Positions 37,532 through 51,584 of a stretch of 64,000 nt of DNA are shown piece by piece. Within the stretch, counting starts at the first letter, position 1, and each line of letters starts with the position of its first letter. The DNA comes from a virus. Under the pieces are notes generated by a model. The model saw nothing but the letters and a program-made list of their open reading frames with translations, was not told the DNA's origin and did not search any database. The position numbers were made by a program, and so were the translations under genes. The stretch is from positions 16,580 through 80,579 of the IMG/VR virus record IMGVR_UViG_3300047560_000724; one strand, written 5' to 3'.

Positions 37532-38137
37532 TTACATCGTTGGGCCGTTGCCCGATCTGAAACCAACAACACCGCCTTCTTCGGCGATACGCTTTAACAC
37601 ATCTTCAAATAAGATAGGTGCAAAGTCCGGTGTTTGTTCCACACAAACGCAATGGTAGCGTGGATCAATTTCATCACCATATAACACTTCGCCGGTCTTG
37701 GCATCAACACCACGAGCTTTCATAACACGATTTGCGTGTAAGTGTCCGTGAATGTTAACACCAAAACGACCTAAGCTATCTGCGTGTACAGGAATATGGC
37801 TTAAGATCATTCCGTTCATAACATGGTATGCTCGTAATTCTCTAAAGTACTGCCTGTACTCGTCATCTCTAAAGATGTCGTGGTTACCACGAATTAAAAC
37901 CTTATCACCGTTCAAGCGATGTAACACTTTTAAGGCCTTGCGGTTAATAACAACATCGCCTAAATGGTAAACCTTGTCAGTAGGCTTGACTCTTTCGTTC
38001 CAAGCCCTGACCATAGCTTCGTCCATTTCGTCCGGGTCATCCCACGGCCTTAACTTTGTAAACCCGTCGTTCCGGGTGAAGCGACATACACCTGTGTGAC
38101 CAAAGTGCGTATCGCTAACTAAAAATACACTAGGCAT
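37532..38137 (-). CDS. Calcineurin-like metallophosphoesterase
   Basis: SDTHFGH, LGD, GNHD, HGHLH. Confidence 0.9.
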   Translation of the reverse strand: MPSVFLVSDTHFGHTGVCRFTRNDGFTKLRPWDDPDEMDEAMVRAWNERVKPTDKVYHLGDVVINRKALKVLHRLNGDKVLIRGNHDIFRDDEYRQYFRELRAYHVMNGMILSHIPVHADSLGRFGVNIHGHLHANRVMKARGVDAKTGEVLYGDEIDPRYHCVCVEQTPDFAPILFEDVLKRIAEEGGVVGFRSGNGPTM

Positions 38138-38634
38138 TATATGTCTCCTTCATAGTTCTTTGGCACAATCAAACCACTGTCTAATTCAATGCCGTTAATC
38201 GTATGGGGCTCGTTTTCATCGTAAGTCCAACCGAGCACCTTCATCATTTTATGCTTGACCATCAAGTTAGGGCTACGAAAAACTTCAGTATCACGGAAGC
38301 CCATCATAACTCCAACCTCGCAGACTGCACCCGAACGGCACACACCTGCAACACAATGCACAACAACATTCATTCGTTGTTCCATTGCATGTTCTAGCAA
38401 TCGAACAAGTCTTTCGGCTTGCTCGTCTGTAACCTTAAAGTCGTCGCCCCACTTGTCGTCTTGTTCCAAATCCAAGAACTCAAACTGATGAGTTTCACGG
38501 AACTGATGCCTAGGAGTAGGGAACTCCATAGCAGGGTCAACTATTTGAATGAGCATACTGTTAATGCCCGCATCAATGTGATGGCCTTTTGGAATGTCAG
38601 CAAACGAGACATTTTGAATCCACGGGGTTAACAT
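38137..38634 (-). CDS. Cys-dependent (dual-specificity/tyrosine-type) phosphatase
   Basis: VHCVAGVCRS (HCxxGxxRS). Confidence 0.85.
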   Translation of the reverse strand: MLTPWIQNVSFADIPKGHHIDAGINSMLIQIVDPAMEFPTPRHQFRETHQFEFLDLEQDDKWGDDFKVTDEQAERLVRLLEHAMEQRMNVVVHCVAGVCRSGAVCEVGVMMGFRDTEVFRSPNLMVKHKMMKVLGWTYDENEPHTINGIELDSGLIVPKNYEGDI

Positions 38635-38743: not shown

Positions 38744-40153
38744 TTACAGGTCGTAGCGTGGGACCATTACAGTCTTAAGCATAATACCTTCTGGAGTGAA
38801 CTGATCAAGATCAGCACTCAAAAGAGCTGTCATAATGCTTGGGCTGAACCCTGACACCAAAGCAGCTCCTGTCTTGTCTGCCTTAACAGGTACATTGTCT
38901 GAACTGTTTAGGTTCCAGAAAACAATCTGTGGCATTGCATAGCCAGCGGCTTCGAACTTGCGTTCGATCATTTCCATTGCGCTATCGTCGTAACGGGCGC
39001 ATTGGTTGAATTGCATGTCTGACAAGATTAGTAGCATAGCTGGCATATCGCTAGCAGGAACATTTCCCTTAACTGCTGTGCTTAGGATCTTATCCATAGC
39101 GGCATGCAGGTTAGTACTCATTTCCCAGTTGCTACGAGACATTTGGTCAACCTTTTCAACAATGTTACCCTTTAGAGTAACAAGTTGTGGCTTGCTTGAG
39201 AAAGTCAAGAATGTGTCCTTGAACGCACCCTTGTTCTTGTCTGCAAGGTACAAGCCTAGGCTTACGGCTACATCAAGACAACGAACACTAGTGTCACGAC
39301 CTGCTGGGCAAGTCATAGAACCAGATACATCAACTAGAGGTAGGATACTTGCGTTGCCTACATAGTTTGGCAGAGCATCCCATTGTGCGATCACATGGTT
39401 AGTCTCTGTCTTGTCCAAAGTCTTGTAGCCGTGTGCGATGCCCTTTAGGACATCATGTGGGAAGATTGCGTTGGCGTTAACCTTAACAGTCTTATCCCCT
39501 GCCACCAACTTGGCCACATACTCTGCAAACGCAGGTGTGTGACGGTTGAATGCCTTCTTGTATTGGCGAGCCGCTACAGAAGGAACATGGCTAAAGTTGA
39601 TGTTATCCCAATCTCCTGCACACATTTGGGTTTCAACAACCTTTGTAAGTGCCACAAGGCTCTTACGGTATTGCTTTGGAGTCATGCCAAAGAAGGCACG
39701 GATCTCAGCGGCAATCTGACCCTTACGAGGAGTCCACTTTGCAGCCAAACCGTTCTTAGCACGAAGGGCATCGCCCAACATGGTATAAGCGGCTGACTTC
39801 AGAACTGGGTCTGAGAAGACAAAGATGTCATCCCAACGACCAACTTCTGGAACCTTGCGAAGCAAAGCCAAAGCGGCGTCTGGGTCACGCTTTTCTAGAT
39901 GAACTAGAATGTCGCGGAACAGTTGACGCTCACCTGCACCACCACGGACATCTCGTGCCCATTGTGCAATGCGAAGTGCAACATCAGAGTTTTCCACATA
40001 GGCTGCAGTGAAGTCAGCCTTAATATCCTTACCACGGCTTGCGCCGATCTTGTAGAACAAGTCAACACACGCCTTAGCTGTGGACTTACGAGCCTTCATG
40101 CCATTGGCAGTACGGGCTTCTTGATTTGCGATTGCGTTTACAAATGCGTTCAT
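38744..40153 (-). CDS. TROVE/Ro60-like protein with vWA domain (DUF2828 type)
   Basis: Helical N-terminus RDVRGGAGER...GRWDD...AAKW.PR; MIDAS DVSGSM...STN...LSDMQF. Confidence 0.75.
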   Translation of the reverse strand: MNAFVNAIANQEARTANGMKARKSTAKACVDLFYKIGASRGKDIKADFTAAYVENSDVALRIAQWARDVRGGAGERQLFRDILVHLEKRDPDAALALLRKVPEVGRWDDIFVFSDPVLKSAAYTMLGDALRAKNGLAAKWTPRKGQIAAEIRAFFGMTPKQYRKSLVALTKVVETQMCAGDWDNINFSHVPSVAARQYKKAFNRHTPAFAEYVAKLVAGDKTVKVNANAIFPHDVLKGIAHGYKTLDKTETNHVIAQWDALPNYVGNASILPLVDVSGSMTCPAGRDTSVRCLDVAVSLGLYLADKNKGAFKDTFLTFSSKPQLVTLKGNIVEKVDQMSRSNWEMSTNLHAAMDKILSTAVKGNVPASDMPAMLLILSDMQFNQCARYDDSAMEMIERKFEAAGYAMPQIVFWNLNSSDNVPVKADKTGAALVSGFSPSIMTALLSADLDQFTPEGIMLKTVMVPRYDL

Positions 40154-40163
40154 TTTATTACCT

Positions 40164-40220
40164 CACAGAATGTATTGTTTTTCGATATGCTTGAAAATTG
40201 AAAGTTGCTGTTAACATTCT
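40164..40220 (-). ncRNA. Stem-ACAGCAA module copy 1 (5' UTR of Ro60-like gene)
   Basis: AGAATGT-TA-ACAGCAA...ACATTCT-GTG abutting the GAGG SD. Confidence 0.7.
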
Positions 40221-40228
40221 AAAATTCT

Positions 40229-40461
40229 AACAGGATGATTGTGCCAATTTGTTTATTATTCTGGTCTGACCAATTACGGCACTCAGACCCTAACAACAAT
40301 TCATGTTGTCTATCTTGTATTGTGTCTGTACAAGCATCATATTACGGATTCTCCGTACCTATCTATTCCTTCGGCGTCTATTTCTAGAAAGCATTTCTGC
40401 TTGTCCTCCGACCGCCTTCTATAGCTGTAGTCGTAGTAGTTTAAATTGCTGTAGTCATCCT
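40229..40461 (-). ncRNA. Stem-ACAGCAA module copy 2 (233 nt, multi-hairpin insert)
   Basis: AGGATGA-CT-ACAGCAA...TCATCCT-GTT. Confidence 0.7.
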
Positions 40462-40467
40462 ATGACT

Positions 40468-40636
40468 AACAGGATCGTTGTTGACTGCTTTTATTAGACT
40501 CAGGCCATCACTCTGAGCTCGTCCAGGGCATTTCAATAGTTACCTTCAACATACTCGGGCGAACCTCTGTACTCCAATAACTACCATGCACTATCCAGAC
40601 CTTTCATAGTAATATGAATGTTGCTGTGCCGATCCT
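40468..40636 (-). ncRNA. Stem-ACAGCAA module copy 3 (169 nt)
   Basis: AGGATCG-GC-ACAGCAA...CGATCCT-GTT. Confidence 0.7.
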
Positions 40637-46264: not shown

Positions 46265-46477
46265 TTTGTAAGTAGTTCCCCCATCGTTATAGGAACCATT
46301 CACCCGTGTAATTAAGCCGGCCGGGACTCGGTACGCCACTAGGGATACTAGTCCAGTTTAGCAACCTGTTTGCAACCGTCCTTCCGGGCGGCCGGGAGTT
46401 GAACCCGCAACCTTCTACTATTTCGGTCCTTCGAAGAAACCTAGATAGCGTGACATTCTCTTGCTGACACTTACAAA
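46265..46477 (-). ncRNA. Unassigned 213-nt RNA, possible divergent stem-CAGCAA module
   Basis: Closing stem TTTGTAAGT/ACTTACAAA, then GT-CAGCAA; T-arm-like GGG TTCAACT CCC. Confidence 0.55.
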
Positions 46478-46482
46478 ACTGT

Positions 46483-46558
46483 TGGGGTGCTAGATGGGGA
46501 ACGATCCCATACTATCGCTTTCACAGAGCGAGGTGCAGACCACTACACTACTAACACC
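46483..46558 (-). tRNA. tRNA-His(GTG) with encoded G-1
   Basis: Loop CTGTGAA, C73; atypical T loop ATCGTTC. Confidence 0.85.
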
Positions 46559-46566
46559 ATAGAAAA

Positions 46567-46684
46567 AACAGGATACATTTTATAGCGCACTACCAATTGT
46601 GCTAACTTGGCATGAAGCCAAATGTTGGACTCGAACCAACAACCTCTCGCTTAGAAGGCGAAAATTGTTTGCTGTTAGTATCCT
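46567..46684 (-). ncRNA. Stem-ACAGCAA module copy 4 carrying circularly permuted tRNA-Arg(TCT)
   Basis: Order anticodon arm, T arm, loop-closed 7-bp acceptor, D arm inside AGGATAC/GTATCCT. Confidence 0.85.
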
Positions 46685-46689
46685 AAACT

Positions 46690-46765
46690 TGGAGCGGGAG
46701 ACGAGGTTCGAACTCGCGACATTTACCTTGGCAAGGTAATGCTCTACCAACTGAGCTACTCCCGC
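46690..46765 (-). tRNA. tRNA-Gly(GCC)
   Basis: Loop TTGCCAA. Confidence 0.95.
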
Positions 46766-47440: not shown

Positions 47441-47470
47441 GTCGTTCTCCTTTTGAACATTGTTGAAATA

Positions 47471-47535
47471 AACAGGATGTATTTTTACGGTTTTGATTAA
47501 AAGTCAAATGTATAAATTTTTGCTGTTAACATCCT
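47471..47535 (-). ncRNA. Stem-ACAGCAA module copy 5 carrying isolated Lys(UUU) anticodon stem-loop
   Basis: AGGATGT/ACATCCT enclosing TTTGA CTTTTAA TCAAA. Confidence 0.8.
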
Positions 47536-47540
47536 TAACT

Positions 47541-47614
47541 TGGTGCTCCATCGAGGAATCGAACCCCAATTGCCGGACTACAAAACCGGTGTCTTACCAT
47601 TAAACGAATGGAGC
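47541..47614 (-). tRNA. tRNA-Thr(TGT), variant copy
   Basis: U31xU39, loop TTTGTAG. Confidence 0.8.
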
Positions 47615-47621
47615 AAATTTA

Positions 47622-47737
47622 AACAGGATAGAATTTAACATAGTGCTACCGTTACACCAAACCTTTCGGCTGCGGAGTCGAACCGCTCCCTTACTTTTCA
47701 AGAGTAGTGAGTTAATTATTTTTGCTGTTACTATCCT
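47622..47737 (-). ncRNA. Stem-ACAGCAA module copy 6 carrying permuted tRNA mimic with Ser(UGA) loop
   Basis: TACT CTTGAAA AGTA, GCGG TTCGACT CCGC, AGCC GAAA GGTT, D-arm-like GTGTAACGGTAGCAC. Confidence 0.8.
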
Positions 47738-47741
47738 TAAC

Positions 47742-47815
47742 TGGTACCTCGTTACAGAATCGAACTGTCATCAACGGTATGTAACACCGTGGTTCTGCCA
47801 TTAAACTACCGAGGC
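47742..47815 (-). tRNA. tRNA-Val(TAC), variant copy
   Basis: Loop GTTACAT (G32, U38). Confidence 0.8.
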
Positions 47816-48583: not shown

Positions 48584-48642
48584 AACAGGATACATTCTTT
48601 TTCACCATTTGAAAGTTGATTAAGATTTGCTGTTAGTATCCT
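48584..48642 (-). ncRNA. Stem-ACAGCAA module copy 7 carrying Glu(UUC)-like anticodon loop
   Basis: AGGATAC/GTATCCT enclosing ATCA-A-CTTTCAA-A-TGGT. Confidence 0.75.
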
Positions 48643-49977: not shown

Positions 49978-50463
49978 TTAACTTTCTACTACACCGACTA
50001 GGTGCAAGCGGGCCTGCTCGGAACAATTCATGAAAGTATGTAGTTTGCGTGTGTCAGTCCAGTAAACTGAGTCAACACTCAAGTGTTGTGGTGCGGAATC
50101 CTTAAACACAAAGTAACAGTTAGGGTTGGTCACTAACGGAATGTGAACCCTTGGTGTTTCATCCCTGTGCATACTGTAACAAGCATAAGGGCCAACCCAC
50201 ATGAGTCTTGTTCTTAGCAGCCGGTACTTAGTGATTAGCTCTTCAAAGACTGTGCCCTTAAAGAAAGGATTTAGCTCAGTGTAACTAGTTTCGTTGCCCT
50301 TACTTCTGCCGACCGCACTCGTCCACGCATCTTCACCTAGTTTAAACTGAAGGCCACATTGTTTACCCTTGTGGCCATAGTCAGTCCATTGTATATCTAA
50401 TTCAAGATCAGTGTACTTTGTTAAGATAGCAGAAGAACTTATACTATCTAATACTTTGATCAT
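49978..50463 (-). CDS. Asp/Asn beta-hydroxylase-like 2OG-Fe(II) oxygenase
   Basis: HRD..PRVHIPL.TN...H.F.N....RLHLV. Confidence 0.8.
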   Translation of the reverse strand: MIKVLDSISSSAILTKYTDLELDIQWTDYGHKGKQCGLQFKLGEDAWTSAVGRSKGNETSYTELNPFFKGTVFEELITKYRLLRTRLMWVGPYACYSMHRDETPRVHIPLVTNPNCYFVFKDSAPQHLSVDSVYWTDTRKLHTFMNCSEQARLHLVGVVES

Positions 50464-51584
50464 GAACGACCAATTCTTGACGGAATTGCTTTAACTTGTG
50501 CCCCAGTATTTGTTTGGTAGGCAATTAATGCGTTTTCATGCGGAGTGGTTAGGTAACTTACTAGTTCCGGAATTGTCAGTACCACGGCTTGACTGTCAGA
50601 ACTTCCTTGTGCAGCCTTTTGGATCATTTTATAGTAAATGCCCTTGCGTGTTTTAACATCATCGTAAATTTCTTCAAAACCAGTATACTTTCTAGCTTGG
50701 ATAATCTCAGGCCAGTTCTTAACAGTCATCATAGGTTTGTAGAACTGTTGAAACAAACTCCACCAGCGGTACGGGTGCTTGATGTTGTTACAGAACACTT
50801 CATAAATTTGCTCTTGTACTGCATAAAAGCGTTGACAAACATCGTCTGTAAGATATGACACAGTTAGTTCTGGAGTATACAAGAAATACTTACTAGTACC
50901 TTCGTAGCCTTGTTCCATCATGTGTCGCATAATAGGTTGTGGTGTTTGGATCCATACAGGTACTGTTGCTCCGTTAGCCATCCGTGGTAAACGCTTAGAA
51001 ACATAATCTGGGCTAATTGGTTGCATCATTGGGTCACCCCCGCCCATGATGTAGCAAAAATCCTGACCAACAAAGTCCATTGTAGCACATTGTACTAAGG
51101 TAGCTAAGTTTGTAAACCCGTATTTTCCTGCGTAACGCTGTGCAAGCCCGCGATAATATGCATCTAAATTAATTGTAAATTGAATGCTTTCGATTCCGTA
51201 TCTGCGGCAAAACTCATAAGCTGTTTTAATATCATGCTCGTTGATCAGTTCGTTAGCAACATCAAACATATGAACAATAACAACCTTAAATGGGACTTTT
51301 GCTTCCATGAGGCTCAAACAAACCATTTGGCTATCACTACCACCGCTGAGGCCAACAATGATCGGTTTTGTTGCTTTATTAGCGATTAGACTAGCGGCAT
51401 GAATACATTCTTCACGGAATGATTTAACTTCGCGAGTAGTATGTCCTAATTGCAATTTAAATGTTCTCGAAGGATCTGGGTCATTGTACCATTCGTCTTG
51501 GTTAGATACATGGTCCTCGTATGGATCCACTCCCCATCCCCATTTAAAATGGTTGCCTTCTGTATAGTCGAATTTTAATTCCAT
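50460..51584 (-). CDS. PP-loop ATP pyrophosphatase-like, group 2
   Basis: LSGGSDS; paralog of 51604 and 55815. Confidence 0.7.
   Translation of the reverse strand: MELKFDYTEGNHFKWGWGVDPYEDHVSNQDEWYNDPDPSRTFKLQLGHTTREVKSFREECIHAASLIANKATKPIIVGLSGGSDSQMVCLSLMEAKVPFKVVIVHMFDVANELINEHDIKTAYEFCRRYGIESIQFTINLDAYYRGLAQRYAGKYGFTNLATLVQCATMDFVGQDFCYIMGGGDPMMQPISPDYVSKRLPRMANGATVPVWIQTPQPIMRHMMEQGYEGTSKYFLYTPELTVSYLTDDVCQRFYAVQEQIYEVFCNNIKHPYRWWSLFQQFYKPMMTVKNWPEIIQARKYTGFEEIYDDVKTRKGIYYKMIQKAAQGSSDSQAVVLTIPELVSYLTTPHENALIAYQTNTGAQVKAIPSRIGRS

What the first reader, a model, noticed from the sequence alone, without database searches (positions are those of the whole stretch)
46567..46684. Complete circularly permuted tRNA-Arg(UCU) inside a module
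Seen on the minus strand in order: TCGC-CTTCTAA-GCGAG (anticodon arm), AGGTT, GTTGG-TTCGAGT-CCAAC (T arm), ATTTGGC-TTCAT-GCCAAGT (7-bp acceptor closed by a loop), TA-GCAC-AATTGGTA-GTGC-GC (D arm). Joining ...GTGCGC to TCGC... rebuilds a standard tRNA with a perfect CTCGC/GCGAG stem. Known: YrlA has T before D and a closed acceptor but no anticodon loop, while permuted tRNA genes matured via circles are known from red algae and an archaeon. Inference: either an unchargeable mimic that displays an anticodon, or a permuted tRNA precursor in a phage.
Basis: partly seen in the sequence, partly recalled or inferred. Interest (0 to 1): 0.82.

Follow-up and report, generated by a model that had tools for sequence, protein, structure and literature searches.

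The report
Phage Y-RNA-like permuted tRNA-Arg mimic
This 115-base gene in a giant lake phage's tRNA cluster encodes a whole tRNA-Arg look-alike with its parts in rotated order and its amino-acid end sealed, joined to a conserved "handle" that travels with a Ro60-shaped phage protein; it is most likely a decoy or tether RNA, not a working tRNA.

Summary
On the minus strand at 46570-46684 lie an anticodon hairpin (loop CUUCUAA), a variable loop, a T arm, a 7-bp acceptor closed by UUCAU, and a D arm. All are enclosed by the stem AGGATAC/GTATCCT with a UAACAGCAAA bulge. Rotating the two halves gives a sequence that ARAGORN calls tRNA-Arg(UCU). In 26 relatives every helix covaries, including a single pair 27:43 across the permutation point.

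The element is one cargo type of a very large family of "7-bp stem + NN-ACAGCAA" RNAs. I found about 720 distinct modules in the loci fetched, and seven lie in this window. Most members carry only an anticodon-like hairpin. The handle lies upstream of a DUF2828/DUF7788 protein (38744-40153) whose model matches only Ro60 structures.

Close relatives change the anticodon on an unchanged class-I body, and some cap the acceptor with UUCG or shrink the loop. All 37 true tRNAs here encode CCA, and a normal tRNA-Arg(UCU) is present. I therefore read it as an uncharged Y-RNA-like tRNA mimic. A permuted tRNA precursor is unlikely.

It is not in Rfam or in the papers I searched. This scan has noted the handle family before on other DNA (118 notes, at least 97 genomes).

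The parts
46678..46684 (-). P1 5' strand AGGATAC of the handle
   Evidence: Pairs with 46570-46576. 100% paired in 26 relatives, with 4 of 7 pairs changed on both sides. 321 distinct 5' strands, each matched by its complement, among 719 modules.
46666..46677 (-). Conserved single-stranded bulge UAACAGCAAACA (family signature NN-ACAGCAA)
   Evidence: Invariant in the alignment. Recurs four times in the tRNA array with at most 2 mismatches and in a variant form in three more modules. At least 119 IMG/VR loci carry it.
46662..46665 (-). Tentative P2 5' strand AUUU (pairs with AAAU at 46577-46580)
   Evidence: Only 67% of cells pair and nothing covaries. This helix is weakly supported.
46647..46661 (-). 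Anticodon-arm hairpin UCGC-CUUCUAA-GCGA (positions 28-42); anticodon UCU at 46653-46655
   Evidence: The stem covaries. The loop matches that of the phage's own tRNA-Arg(tct).
46646..46646 (-). G43, pairs in trans with C27 (46585) across the permutation point
   Evidence: G-C in 15 sequences and A-U in 6. The cis alternative is U.G in 14, unpaired in 4, with no covariation.
46641..46645 (-). 5-nt variable loop AGGUU (class-I type)
   Evidence: It remains 5 nt in relatives that carry Ser or Leu anticodons.
46624..46640 (-). T arm GUUGG-UUCGAGU-CCAAC
   Evidence: 100% paired, 3 pairs covary. Matched by the YrlA and tRNA models.
46605..46623 (-). 7-bp acceptor helix AUUUGGC/GCCAAGU closed by the loop UUCAU (46612-46616)
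   Evidence: 96.7% paired, 6 of 7 pairs covary. Loop variants in relatives are UUCAU, UCCAU, UCCAA, UUCAA, UUCG and a 15-17-nt insert.
46587..46604 (-). U8 A9 followed by the D arm GCAC-AAUUGGUA-GUGC
   Evidence: 100% paired, 1 pair covaries. G18, G19 and A21 are present; position 20 is U.
46585..46586 (-). G26 and C27, the last tRNA-like nucleotides before the linker UAUA
46570..46576 (-). P1 3' strand GUAUCCU
46559..46569 (-). U-rich 3' tail GUUUUUUCUAU, running up to the 5' end of tRNA-His
   Evidence: The base after P1 is G in 79% of modules and is followed by a U-rich run. tRNA-His begins at 46557/46558.
38744..40153 (-). Proposed protein partner: 469-aa DUF2828 + DUF7788 protein with a Ro60-like fold and a vWA MIDAS motif
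   Evidence: Pfam hits. AF2 model with pLDDT 85. The 13 best PDB matches are all Ro60/TROVE proteins, E from 1e-9 to 7e-6. MIDAS residues are invariant. The handle motif lies upstream on the same strand in 50 of 65 loci fetched by protein.
47625..47737 (-). Sibling module: permuted tRNA-like cargo with a CUUGAAA (UGA) loop and a 4-bp GAAA-capped acceptor
47474..47535 (-). Sibling module: the handle plus only a Lys-type anticodon hairpin UUUGA-CUUUUAA-UCAAA
48587..48642 (-). Sibling module: the handle plus a short hairpin whose loop contains UGGU
40167..40636 (-). Three more handle modules (40471-40636, 40232-40461, 40167-40220) directly upstream of the Ro60-like ORF
   Evidence: Read: AGGATCG/CGATCCT, AGGATGA/TCATCCT and AGAATGT/ACATTCT, each followed by NN-ACAGCAA.

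Best explanation
The element is a non-coding RNA of about 115-130 nt. It is most likely cut out of the polycistronic tRNA transcript by the same enzymes that trim its neighbours, tRNA-Gly upstream and tRNA-His downstream.

Its two ends pair into a 7-bp helix with a conserved 5' bulge UAACAGCAAA and a G+U-rich 3' tail. I call this the handle. The interior folds into a full L-shaped tRNA-Arg(UCU) look-alike. The chain enters at position 28 and runs through the anticodon arm, variable loop and T arm, then a sealed 7-bp acceptor, then the D arm. It leaves after position 27.

By analogy with Y RNAs, the handle is the docking site for the phage's Ro60-like ring protein (DUF2828 + vWA). The tRNA-shaped cargo, including a genuine-looking anticodon loop, is then presented to a factor that recognises tRNA-Arg(UCU). 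That factor could be a host anticodon nuclease or tRNA-modifying enzyme that is tied up (decoy). It could also be an enzyme brought to the Ro60-like ring (tether).

The RNA is not aminoacylated and does not decode.

Shown here: the sequence elements, the covarying structure, family membership, the genetic linkage to the protein, and the Ro60-like fold of that protein.

Inferred: RNA-protein binding, the RNA ends, and the identity of the factor engaged.
For: Structure:
- All helices and the trans 27:43 pair covary.
- The universal tertiary nucleotides U8, A14, A15:U48, G18, G19, A21, G26:A44, G46, U54, U55, C56, A58 and G53:C61 are present (sequence).
- The T-acceptor-D order matches the YrlA model.

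Family:
- The same handle closes 119 of 151 motif sites in IMG/VR loci and about 720 distinct modules overall.
- Seven modules lie in this window.
- Cargo ranges from a lone anticodon-like hairpin to a whole permuted tRNA. So the handle, not tRNA maturation, is the common denominator.

Partner:
- The ORF at 38744-40153 folds like Ro60 with an intact MIDAS motif.
- 56 of 63 motif-fetched loci have ACAGCAA on the same strand within 1 kb upstream of the gene.
- The same holds for 50 of 65 protein-fetched loci, against 2 of 65 antisense and 5 of 62 downstream.
- This linkage holds down to about 30% protein identity.
- In known Y RNAs the end-to-end stem carries the Ro60 site, and only its 5' strand is conserved (10.1101/312249). 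The same asymmetry is seen here.

Not a working tRNA:
- There is no CCA, although 37 of 37 true tRNAs encode it.
- Close relatives carry UCU, UAU, UGA, UAA, UCA, GAU, CCA or GCA loops, or 4-5-nt loops, on the same class-I body.
- Some acceptors are capped by UUCG or other tetraloops.
- A canonical tRNA of the same anticodon is found in 5 of 7 UCU-type relative loci, and also in this window.
- Position 20 is U20 where the phage's true tRNA-Arg has A20.

Anticodon mimicry looks selected: loops placed like an anticodon arm have U33 in 72%, R37 in 88% and A38 in 78%.
Against: - No binding experiment exists. The link to the protein is genetic and structural only.
- The Ro60-like gene is 6.4 kb away from this particular copy.
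- The protein is not a Pfam TROVE member, and the handle does not resemble the YrlA handle.
- Expression is only hinted at. Contigs from four freshwater RNA libraries cover parts of the array, including sibling modules. Contigs cannot show RNA ends, and DNA carry-over is possible.
- The 7-bp acceptor and the conserved N-YCA-N loop resemble a tRNA 3' end. M. smegmatis YrlA with a 7-bp acceptor is opened by RNase P and receives CCA (10.1101/312249). Opening of this RNA therefore cannot be excluded.
- The target of the displayed anticodon is unknown.
Confidence: 0.65

Rival explanations
1. Permuted tRNA precursor. The handle is removed, positions 27 and 28 are ligated (possibly through a circular intermediate), the acceptor loop is opened by RNase P, the 3' end is trimmed and given CCA, and a functional tRNA-Arg(UCU) results. 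A milder form of this idea is a two-piece, unligated but chargeable tRNA held together by the acceptor and handle helices.
For: - All tRNA parts and tertiary nucleotides are present, and ARAGORN calls the rotated sequence tRNA-Arg(tct).
- The acceptor is exactly 7 bp and covaries.
- The loop is U-U/C-C-A-N, one base away from N-CCA-N, and is exactly UCCAU or UCCAA in three relatives.
- RNase P cleavage and CCA addition are reported for the 7-bp-acceptor YrlA of M. smegmatis, and the authors raise this possibility for YrlA (10.1101/312249).
- A relative (L040) encodes a permuted tmRNA, so permuted tRNA-like genes with processed acceptors occur in this phage group.
Against: - The same handle closes hundreds of RNAs that have no tRNA body.
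- Relatives have UUCG or other tetraloop-capped acceptors, 4-5-nt 'anticodon' loops, or U37.
- Ser and Leu anticodons sit on a body with a 5-nt variable loop.
- Position 20 is U20 instead of A20. That A20 is a major E. coli ArgRS identity element is from my own knowledge.
- A canonical tRNA-Arg(UCU) is present.
- The junction has no bulge-helix-bulge (read).
- The contig has no RtcB, Rnl2-type ligase, CCA-adding enzyme or splicing endonuclease. A 97%-complete relative holding the UAU sibling has no RtcB or Rnl2-type ligase.
- No back-joint between 46585 and 46661 appears among the listed joints of RNA-library contigs. This is weak evidence.
Confidence: 0.06
2. Processing punctuation. The stem plus tRNA-like fold serves only as a cleavage or folding signal (RNase P/Z/E/III entry site or insulator) that helps mature the 37-tRNA transcript. 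It has no function as a free RNA.
For: - The module sits 5 nt after the CCA of tRNA-Gly and 11 nt before tRNA-His.
- In this window the handle follows a tRNA 3' end in all four modules of the tRNA array.
- A U-rich tail follows the stem.
Against: - Only 29% of all modules have a CCA within about 14 nt upstream.
- Arrays of modules lie directly upstream of the Ro60-like gene without intervening tRNAs.
- An anticodon loop with U33/R37 bias and a 7-bp covarying acceptor exceed what a cleavage signal would need.
Confidence: 0.1
3. Decaying by-product of tandem tRNA rearrangement. It would be the 3' half of one tRNA gene fused to the 5' half of the next, a pseudogene without function.
For: - The N-YCA-N acceptor loop looks like a discriminator plus CCA followed directly by the next tRNA's 5' end.
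- tRNAs in this array lie as little as 1 nt apart.
Against: - Compensatory changes occur in every helix across 26 distinct sequences from many samples.
- No canonical tRNA of the array is closer than 50 of 73 positions to the rotated sequence. The element is therefore not a recent rearrangement.
Confidence: 0.03

Closest known systems
YrlA-type Y RNAs bound by Ro60/Rsr in bacteria and mycobacteriophages (Rfam RF02553; Chen et al. 2014, PMC4201824; Wang et al. 2018, 10.1101/312249)
   Same: - Modular RNA whose 5' and 3' ends pair into a stem.
- tRNA-like domain in the order T arm, closed acceptor, D arm, with tRNA tertiary nucleotides.
- Encoded near a Ro60-type protein and among phage tRNAs.
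- Conservation of the handle concentrated on the 5' strand.
   Different: - Scores 28 bits against a 69-bit cut-off.
- The handle sequence (7-bp stem + NN-ACAGCAA bulge) differs from the YrlA consensus.
- The partner is a DUF2828/DUF7788 protein that no TROVE HMM detects.
- YrlA lacks an anticodon loop. Here a complete 5-bp/7-nt anticodon arm is present, and the chain break lies at 27/28 rather than running through the anticodon stem.
- The same handle also carries cargo unrelated to a tRNA body.
Thermus phage phiLo Ro60 with Yrl1/Yrl2 (PMC12135203; PDB 9KOP, 9L5Y)
   Same: A phage-encoded Ro60-fold ring with Y-RNA-like genes just upstream. The model of the window's protein matches 9L5Y at E = 2e-8.
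   Different: - phiLo's protein is labelled a TROVE domain-containing protein in its PDB entries.
- Its Yrl RNAs were found through a CGAA motif, not ACAGCAA.
- In the passages I read, they are not described as tRNA mimics with anticodon arms.
Circularly permuted tRNA genes of Cyanidioschyzon merolae and Thermofilum pendens (Soma et al. 2007, as cited in 10.1101/312249; the rest from my own knowledge)
   Same: The 3' half is encoded before the 5' half. [quoted passage not shown]
   Different: - Those precursors are cut at bulge-helix-bulge motifs by the splicing endonuclease, circularised, and become working tRNAs.
- Here there is no BHB and no such enzyme in the contig.
- The junction lies at 27/28 inside a conserved protein-linked handle.
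- Relatives have features that rule out decoding.
Two-piece (circularly permuted) tmRNA (Rfam RF04321)
   Same: A bacterial and phage precedent for a permuted tRNA-like domain whose acceptor strands are encoded in 3'-then-5' order. A relative, L040, carries one.
   Different: tmRNA has a free CCA, is charged with alanine and carries a tag reading frame. ARAGORN finds no tmRNA in the window, and this element has no reading frame.

Membership tests
YrlA (Rfam RF02553) | Score at or above the curated gathering threshold (69 bits) | tested here: not met
   28.3 bits, covering model positions 24-84 only. Relatives score 31-40 bits.
YrlA (Rfam RF02553) | tRNA-like domain: T arm, then a closed acceptor hairpin, then a D arm | tested here: met
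   Alignment to the model. Covariation in all three helices.
YrlA (Rfam RF02553) | YrlA-type Ro60-binding stem (consensus cggCga..uggGgaa..) | tested here: not met
   The consensus shown contains no ACAGCAA, and the handle positions do not align.
YrlA (Rfam RF02553) | No anticodon loop; the anticodon-stem equivalent is formed by the 5' and 3' strands | tested here: not met
   A local hairpin with a 7-nt CUUCUAA loop is present. Only pair 27:43 is formed between the two strands.
Y RNA / Ro60 ribonucleoprotein (general) | RNA ends pair into a stem with a conserved 5' strand, and the gene lies near a Ro60-type gene | tested here: met
   P1 plus the conserved 5' bulge. Linkage to the Ro60-fold gene.
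Y RNA / Ro60 ribonucleoprotein (general) | Physical binding of the RNA to the Ro60 protein | not testable with these tools
   Needs RIP or EMSA.
Ro60 / TROVE protein family (the partner protein) | HEAT-repeat ring plus a vWA domain with MIDAS | tested here: met
   The top 13 Foldseek matches are all Ro60, with TM 0.39-0.63 over the full length. The DxSGS..T..SD motif is invariant.
Ro60 / TROVE protein family (the partner protein) | Match to Pfam TROVE (PF05731) | tested here: not met
   No match in the contig. The ORF hits DUF2828 and DUF7788 instead. A profile against PDB sequences reaches only E = 0.07-0.16 for Ro60 vWA parts.
Functional tRNA (RF00005) | Contiguous cloverleaf with free 5' and 3' acceptor ends | tested here: not met
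   ARAGORN does not call it. The only tRNA-model hit is an alternative 26.7-bit alignment below the 29-bit cut-off. The acceptor is a closed hairpin.
Functional tRNA (RF00005) | Encoded 3' CCA, as in every tRNA of this array | tested here: not met
   37 of 37 tRNAs end in CCA. The element has UUCAU.
Circularly permuted tRNA genes (C. merolae type) | 3' half encoded upstream of the 5' half; the rotated sequence is a valid tRNA | tested here: met
   ARAGORN calls the rotated sequence tRNA-Arg(tct).
Circularly permuted tRNA genes (C. merolae type) | Bulge-helix-bulge motif at the junction, and a splicing endonuclease | tested here: not met
   The junction has a 12-nt bulge on one strand only. There is no tRNA_int_endo in the contig, which is only 21% complete.
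Circularly permuted tRNA genes (C. merolae type) | Circular intermediate and a mature ligated tRNA | tested here: inconclusive
   Only assembled contigs of RNA libraries could be laid. No matching back-joint is listed. Raw reads are needed.

The most novel reading that the evidence does not exclude
The RNA is opened in vivo at its N-YCA-N acceptor loop by RNase P and repaired to CCA, as reported for M. smegmatis YrlA. It then acts as a chargeable tRNA-Arg(UCU), either two-piece or re-ligated, that stays attached through its handle to a Ro60-like ring. This would be the first permuted or split tRNA in a bacteriophage, and the first Ro60-type particle carrying an aminoacylatable, anticodon-bearing tRNA.
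Probability: 0.05. Interest if true: 0.92.

Novelty: new variant of a known kind. Interest (0 to 1): 0.66.

Why it matters
Y RNAs of the YrlA type are known tRNA mimics whose purpose is still unclear, and they lack an anticodon loop. This element shows that a large, uncatalogued sister family exists in phages and in bacterial genome assemblies. In IMG/VR alone there are at least 560 homologs of the partner protein, and the fetched loci hold hundreds of distinct RNAs.

In this family the Ro60-like ring is paired with interchangeable cargo. The cargo runs from bare anticodon arms to a complete, correctly folded, permuted tRNA whose anticodon changes between close relatives.

That points to the anticodon loop as the business end. 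It gives a concrete hypothesis for what tRNA-like Y RNAs do in infection: engaging anticodon-directed nucleases or modification enzymes. This can be tested with simple binding and cleavage assays.

It also assigns a likely function to DUF2828/DUF7788 proteins, which also occur in bacteria and plants.

Tried and rejected
- blastn of the region against 50,697 GenBank phage records gave no match.
- TROVE, RtcB, T4 Rnl1, Rnl2-type ligase, CCA-adding enzyme and tRNA splicing endonuclease HMMs found nothing in the 80-kb contig. The contig is only 21% complete, and the Rnl1 control did not ring, so these results are weak.
- Three 94-100%-complete relatives (345-356 kb) lack RtcB and Rnl2. They also lack a close copy of this element, so only G005/L129 bears on the question.
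- Laying contigs of four freshwater RNA libraries showed partial cover of the array and of sibling modules. It gave no usable ends and no 27/28 back-joint. This is not evidence of absence.
- Genes downstream of the Ro60-like gene are not conserved in distant loci: DNA methylase, Pol A, aminotransferase, PhoH-PIN, terminase. So no conserved RNA-repair partner was found there.
- The rotated element is not a recent copy of any of the 37 tRNAs. The best match is 50 of 73 positions, and tRNA-Arg(tct) is not among the top eight.
- The proposed P2 helix (AUUU/AAAU) is not supported by covariation.
- The alternative sub-threshold tRNA alignment, which uses the CCA-AGUU of tRNA-Gly as a 5' acceptor strand, was rejected. 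It needs an 18-nt non-D-arm insert, and the downstream GCCAAGU strand covaries with AUUUGGC instead.
- Literature searches for permuted tRNA in phage, DUF2828, YrlA, Ro60 phage and anticodon-nuclease decoys found no description of this handle family.
Full report
**Setting.** The window is the last 64 kb of an 80.6-kb IMG/VR phage contig that CheckV rates 21% complete. Near-complete relatives measure 338-356 kb. DNA runs holding the stretch, and RNA-library runs sharing part of it, are freshwater or lake metagenomes. The minus strand carries 37 tRNA genes between 40729 and 48721. All 37 encode their 3' CCA. The finding lies between tRNA-Gly(GCC) (46690-46765) and tRNA-His (46483-46557).

**Observation.** Read on the minus strand from 46684, the element consists of:
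- AGGATAC (P1 5' strand), then TAACAGCAAACA, then ATTT
- TCGC-CTTCTAA-GCGA (anticodon hairpin), then G
- AGGTT (variable loop)
- GTTGG-TTCGAGT-CCAAC (T arm)
- ATTTGGC-TTCAT-GCCAAGT (acceptor closed by a loop)
- TA, then GCAC-AATTGGTA-GTGC (D arm)
- G, C, TATA, AAAT, then GTATCCT (P1 3' strand), then GTTTTTTCTAT

The single-sequence MFE fold contains the four hairpins and the outer stem (z = -2.9). ARAGORN and the Rfam tRNA model do not call it as encoded. When the D-side half is placed in front of the anticodon-side half, ARAGORN calls tRNA-Arg(tct). The universal tertiary nucleotides are all present: U8, A14, A15:U48, G18, G19, A21, G26:A44, G46, U54-U55-C56, A58 and G53:C61. The Rfam YrlA model aligns the T-acceptor-D part at 28.3 bits against a 69-bit cut-off.

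**It is one member of a large family.** The 5' motif recurs at four places in the tRNA array, each just after a tRNA. Three more modules, with NN-ACAGCAA variants, lie directly before the ORF that starts at 40153.
At 119 of 151 motif sites the exact reverse complement of the 7-mer follows within 260 nt.
- Across everything fetched I count about 720 distinct closed modules with 321 different P1 sequences, each matched by its complement. A G follows the stem in 79% of modules, and a U-rich run comes next.
- Short modules (about 55-65 nt) carry only a 5-bp/7-nt hairpin, most often CUUUUAA. Long modules carry a tRNA-like body.
- The pattern also occurs in bacterial and archaeal genome assemblies. 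33 of 120 hits there are closed by a 7-bp stem, and 29 of the 120 loci hold the partner protein.
- No Rfam 15 family matches the handle. The YrlA consensus handle is different.

**Structure by comparison.** I aligned 26 distinct relatives of this element from viral and metagenome contigs and counted pairs.

| Helix | Cells paired | Pairs changed on both sides |
|---|---|---|
| P1 | 100% | 4 of 7 |
| T arm | 100% | 3 of 5 |
| Acceptor | 96.7% | 6 of 7 |
| D arm | 100% | 1 of 4 |
| Anticodon stem | 82% (lower because a divergent sub-lineage aligns poorly) | 3 of 4 |

- Overall, 93.4% of cells pair, compared with 28-44% when partners are slid. None of 500 shuffles reaches the observed values.
- G43 pairs with the C that follows G26 after the D arm: G-C in 15 sequences and A-U in 6.
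- The cis alternative, the base 5' of the hairpin, is U.G or unpaired and never covaries.
- The short helix I proposed next to P1 (AUUU/AAAU) is not supported.

**The protein partner.**
- Pfam gives DUF2828 and DUF7788, not TROVE.
- I aligned 29 homologs translated from the fetched loci, at 24-92% identity to the window's protein. The vWA MIDAS motif is invariant.
- AlphaFold2 on this alignment gives pLDDT 85 and pTM 0.84.
- Foldseek against the PDB returns Ro60/TROVE structures as the 13 best matches: Xenopus, human, Deinococcus Rsr and Thermus phage phiLo. E-values run from 1e-9 to 7e-6, with TM up to 0.63 over the full length. Only isolated vWA domains follow.
- Linkage in motif-fetched loci: 56 of 63 genes have ACAGCAA on the same strand within 1 kb upstream.
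- Linkage in loci fetched by protein alone: 50 of 65 do, against 2 of 65 antisense and 5 of 62 downstream. Chance expectation is about 0.06 sites per kb, by my calculation.
- At least 560 relatives of the protein are in IMG/VR.
- Genes downstream of it are not conserved.

In known Y RNAs the end-to-end stem carries the Ro60 site, Ro60 contacts mainly its 5' strand, and only that strand is conserved among bacteria (10.1101/312249). The handle here shows the same asymmetry.

**Mimic or precursor?** Several observations argue against a decoding tRNA.
1. The handle is shared with RNAs that have no tRNA body.
2. Among close relatives the body is almost unchanged while the loop reads UCU, UAU, UGA, UAA, UCA, GAU, or CCA and GCA with U37. 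In one sub-lineage it shrinks to 4-5 nt. The Ser and Leu anticodons sit on a 5-nt variable loop, whereas bacterial tRNA-Ser and tRNA-Leu have a long variable arm (my own knowledge).
3. The acceptor loop is UUCAU here and UCCAU, UCCAA or UUCAA in several relatives. In others it is a UUCG, GUAU or UUAU tetraloop or a 15-17-nt insert. The sibling type in this window has a 4-bp acceptor capped by GAAA.
4. Position 20 is U, whereas the phage's canonical tRNA-Arg(tct) has A after G18-G19. A20 is a major identity element for E. coli ArgRS (my own knowledge).
5. A canonical tRNA with the same anticodon is present here and in most relatives' loci.
6. The junction has no bulge-helix-bulge. A 97%-complete 338.5-kb relative that holds the UAU sibling has no RtcB or Rnl2-type ligase.

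Some observations speak for processing. The acceptor is exactly 7 bp, and the N-YCA-N loop is conserved. The 7-bp-acceptor YrlA of M. smegmatis is reported to be cut by RNase P and given CCA. I therefore keep a small probability (about 5-6%) for an opened or matured form.

**What the anticodon arm is for.** This part is inference. Among 217 long modules with a T arm, 97 have a 7-nt-loop hairpin placed like an anticodon arm. These loops show U33 in 72%, R37 in 88% and A38 in 78%. Anticodon-loop mimicry is therefore recurrent in the family, not peculiar to this copy.

The displayed anticodons are mostly UUU, UGA, UCU, GUA, UAU, UGU and GUU. About 90% of long-module loops and about 80% of short-module loops end in U36 or A36 followed by A37, against 20 of 37 for the window's own tRNAs. 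The mimic percentages are hand tallies of the anticodon counts; the tRNA figure is a hand count of the anticodons. These are the tRNAs that carry t6A or i6A at position 37, and they include known targets of anticodon nucleases: Lys, Tyr, Asn and Arg (my own knowledge). A/U-rich composition may contribute to the bias.

The simplest reading is that the Ro60-like particle presents tRNA or anticodon-arm look-alikes to anticodon-directed enzymes, either to soak them up or to recruit them. The rapid change of anticodon on a constant body fits a specificity determinant under changing selection.

**Expression.** Contigs from four freshwater RNA libraries lie on parts of the array. One covers 47633-47742 with 2 differences and another covers 47470-47662 with 1 difference. 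The bin holding this element has depth in three of the four runs. Contigs cannot give RNA ends, and DNA carry-over is possible. This is only a hint.

**Comparison and novelty.** The element works like a YrlA-type Y RNA but fails the membership tests for that family on score, handle sequence and absence of an anticodon loop. Its partner has the Ro60 fold but no TROVE signature. It shares gene order with the permuted tRNA genes of red algae and archaea, but not their processing signals.

I found no description of the handle family, or of a Y-like RNA with a complete anticodon arm, in Rfam 15 or in the literature searches. Notes of this scan describe the same handle/DUF2828 pairing in at least 97 other genomes. 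A sibling in this window was followed up with a similar reading. My tests agree with those notes.

I class it as a new variant of a known kind, the Ro60/Y-RNA particle with a tRNA-mimic cargo. The complete anticodon-bearing permuted tRNA is its most striking cargo.

Noticed in passing
window 40167-40636 (-): Three further handle modules (AGGATCG/CGATCCT, AGGATGA/TCATCCT, AGAATGT/ACATTCT, each with NN-ACAGCAA) lie head to tail directly before the start codon of the Ro60-like ORF at 40153. Two of them carry 150-210-nt cargo of unknown fold.
   Followed up: partly
window 48587-48642 (-), and many loci (e.g. L100, L009, L052): A second class of short modules carries a hairpin whose loop contains UGGU. 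This is complementary to the ACCA 3' end that many tRNAs of this array have. It could pair with tRNA 3' ends as the T-box bulge does.
   Followed up: no
This is the class of tRNAs that carries t6A or i6A at position 37. Only 20 of 37 true tRNAs in the window are of this class (hand count).
   Followed up: partly
L040:284-761 (+): A close relative of this phage encodes a circularly permuted (two-piece) tmRNA (Rfam RF04321, 133.5 bits) about 9 kb upstream of its copy of the UCU mimic.
   Followed up: no
window 46265-46477 (-): A GC-rich stretch between tRNA-His and tRNA-Leu contains a T-arm-like GGG-TTCAACT-CCC and several hairpins. No Rfam match at E <= 10. RNA-library contigs pile up here (depth up to 460 in one run).
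   Followed up: no
window 37532-38634 (-): Immediately downstream of the Ro60-like gene lie a dual-specificity-phosphatase-like ORF (165 aa) and a calcineurin-like metallophosphoesterase (201 aa). These could be RNA end-healing enzymes. The neighbourhood is not conserved in distant loci.
   Followed up: partly
window 49978-51584 (-): Upstream of the tRNA array lie a PP-loop ATPase (weak NAD-synthase / tRNA-methyltransferase-like hits) and an Asp/Asn beta-hydroxylase-like ORF.
   Followed up: no
L339-L458 (genome contigs): The pattern TAACAGCAAA followed within 22-52 nt by a T loop also occurs in assemblies labelled Lachnospiraceae, Bacteroidales, Christensenella, Promethearchaeota and others. 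33 of 120 are closed by a 7-bp stem, and 29 of the 120 loci hold a homolog of the Ro60-like protein. About ten Chitinophaga species match the pattern, but none is closed by a 7-bp stem under my rule.
   Followed up: partly
L105, L248, L243, L120, L258, L230: In one sub-lineage the acceptor loop is replaced by a conserved 15-17-nt insert (UCAAGCCUAAAAAGCAG) of unknown role.
   Followed up: no
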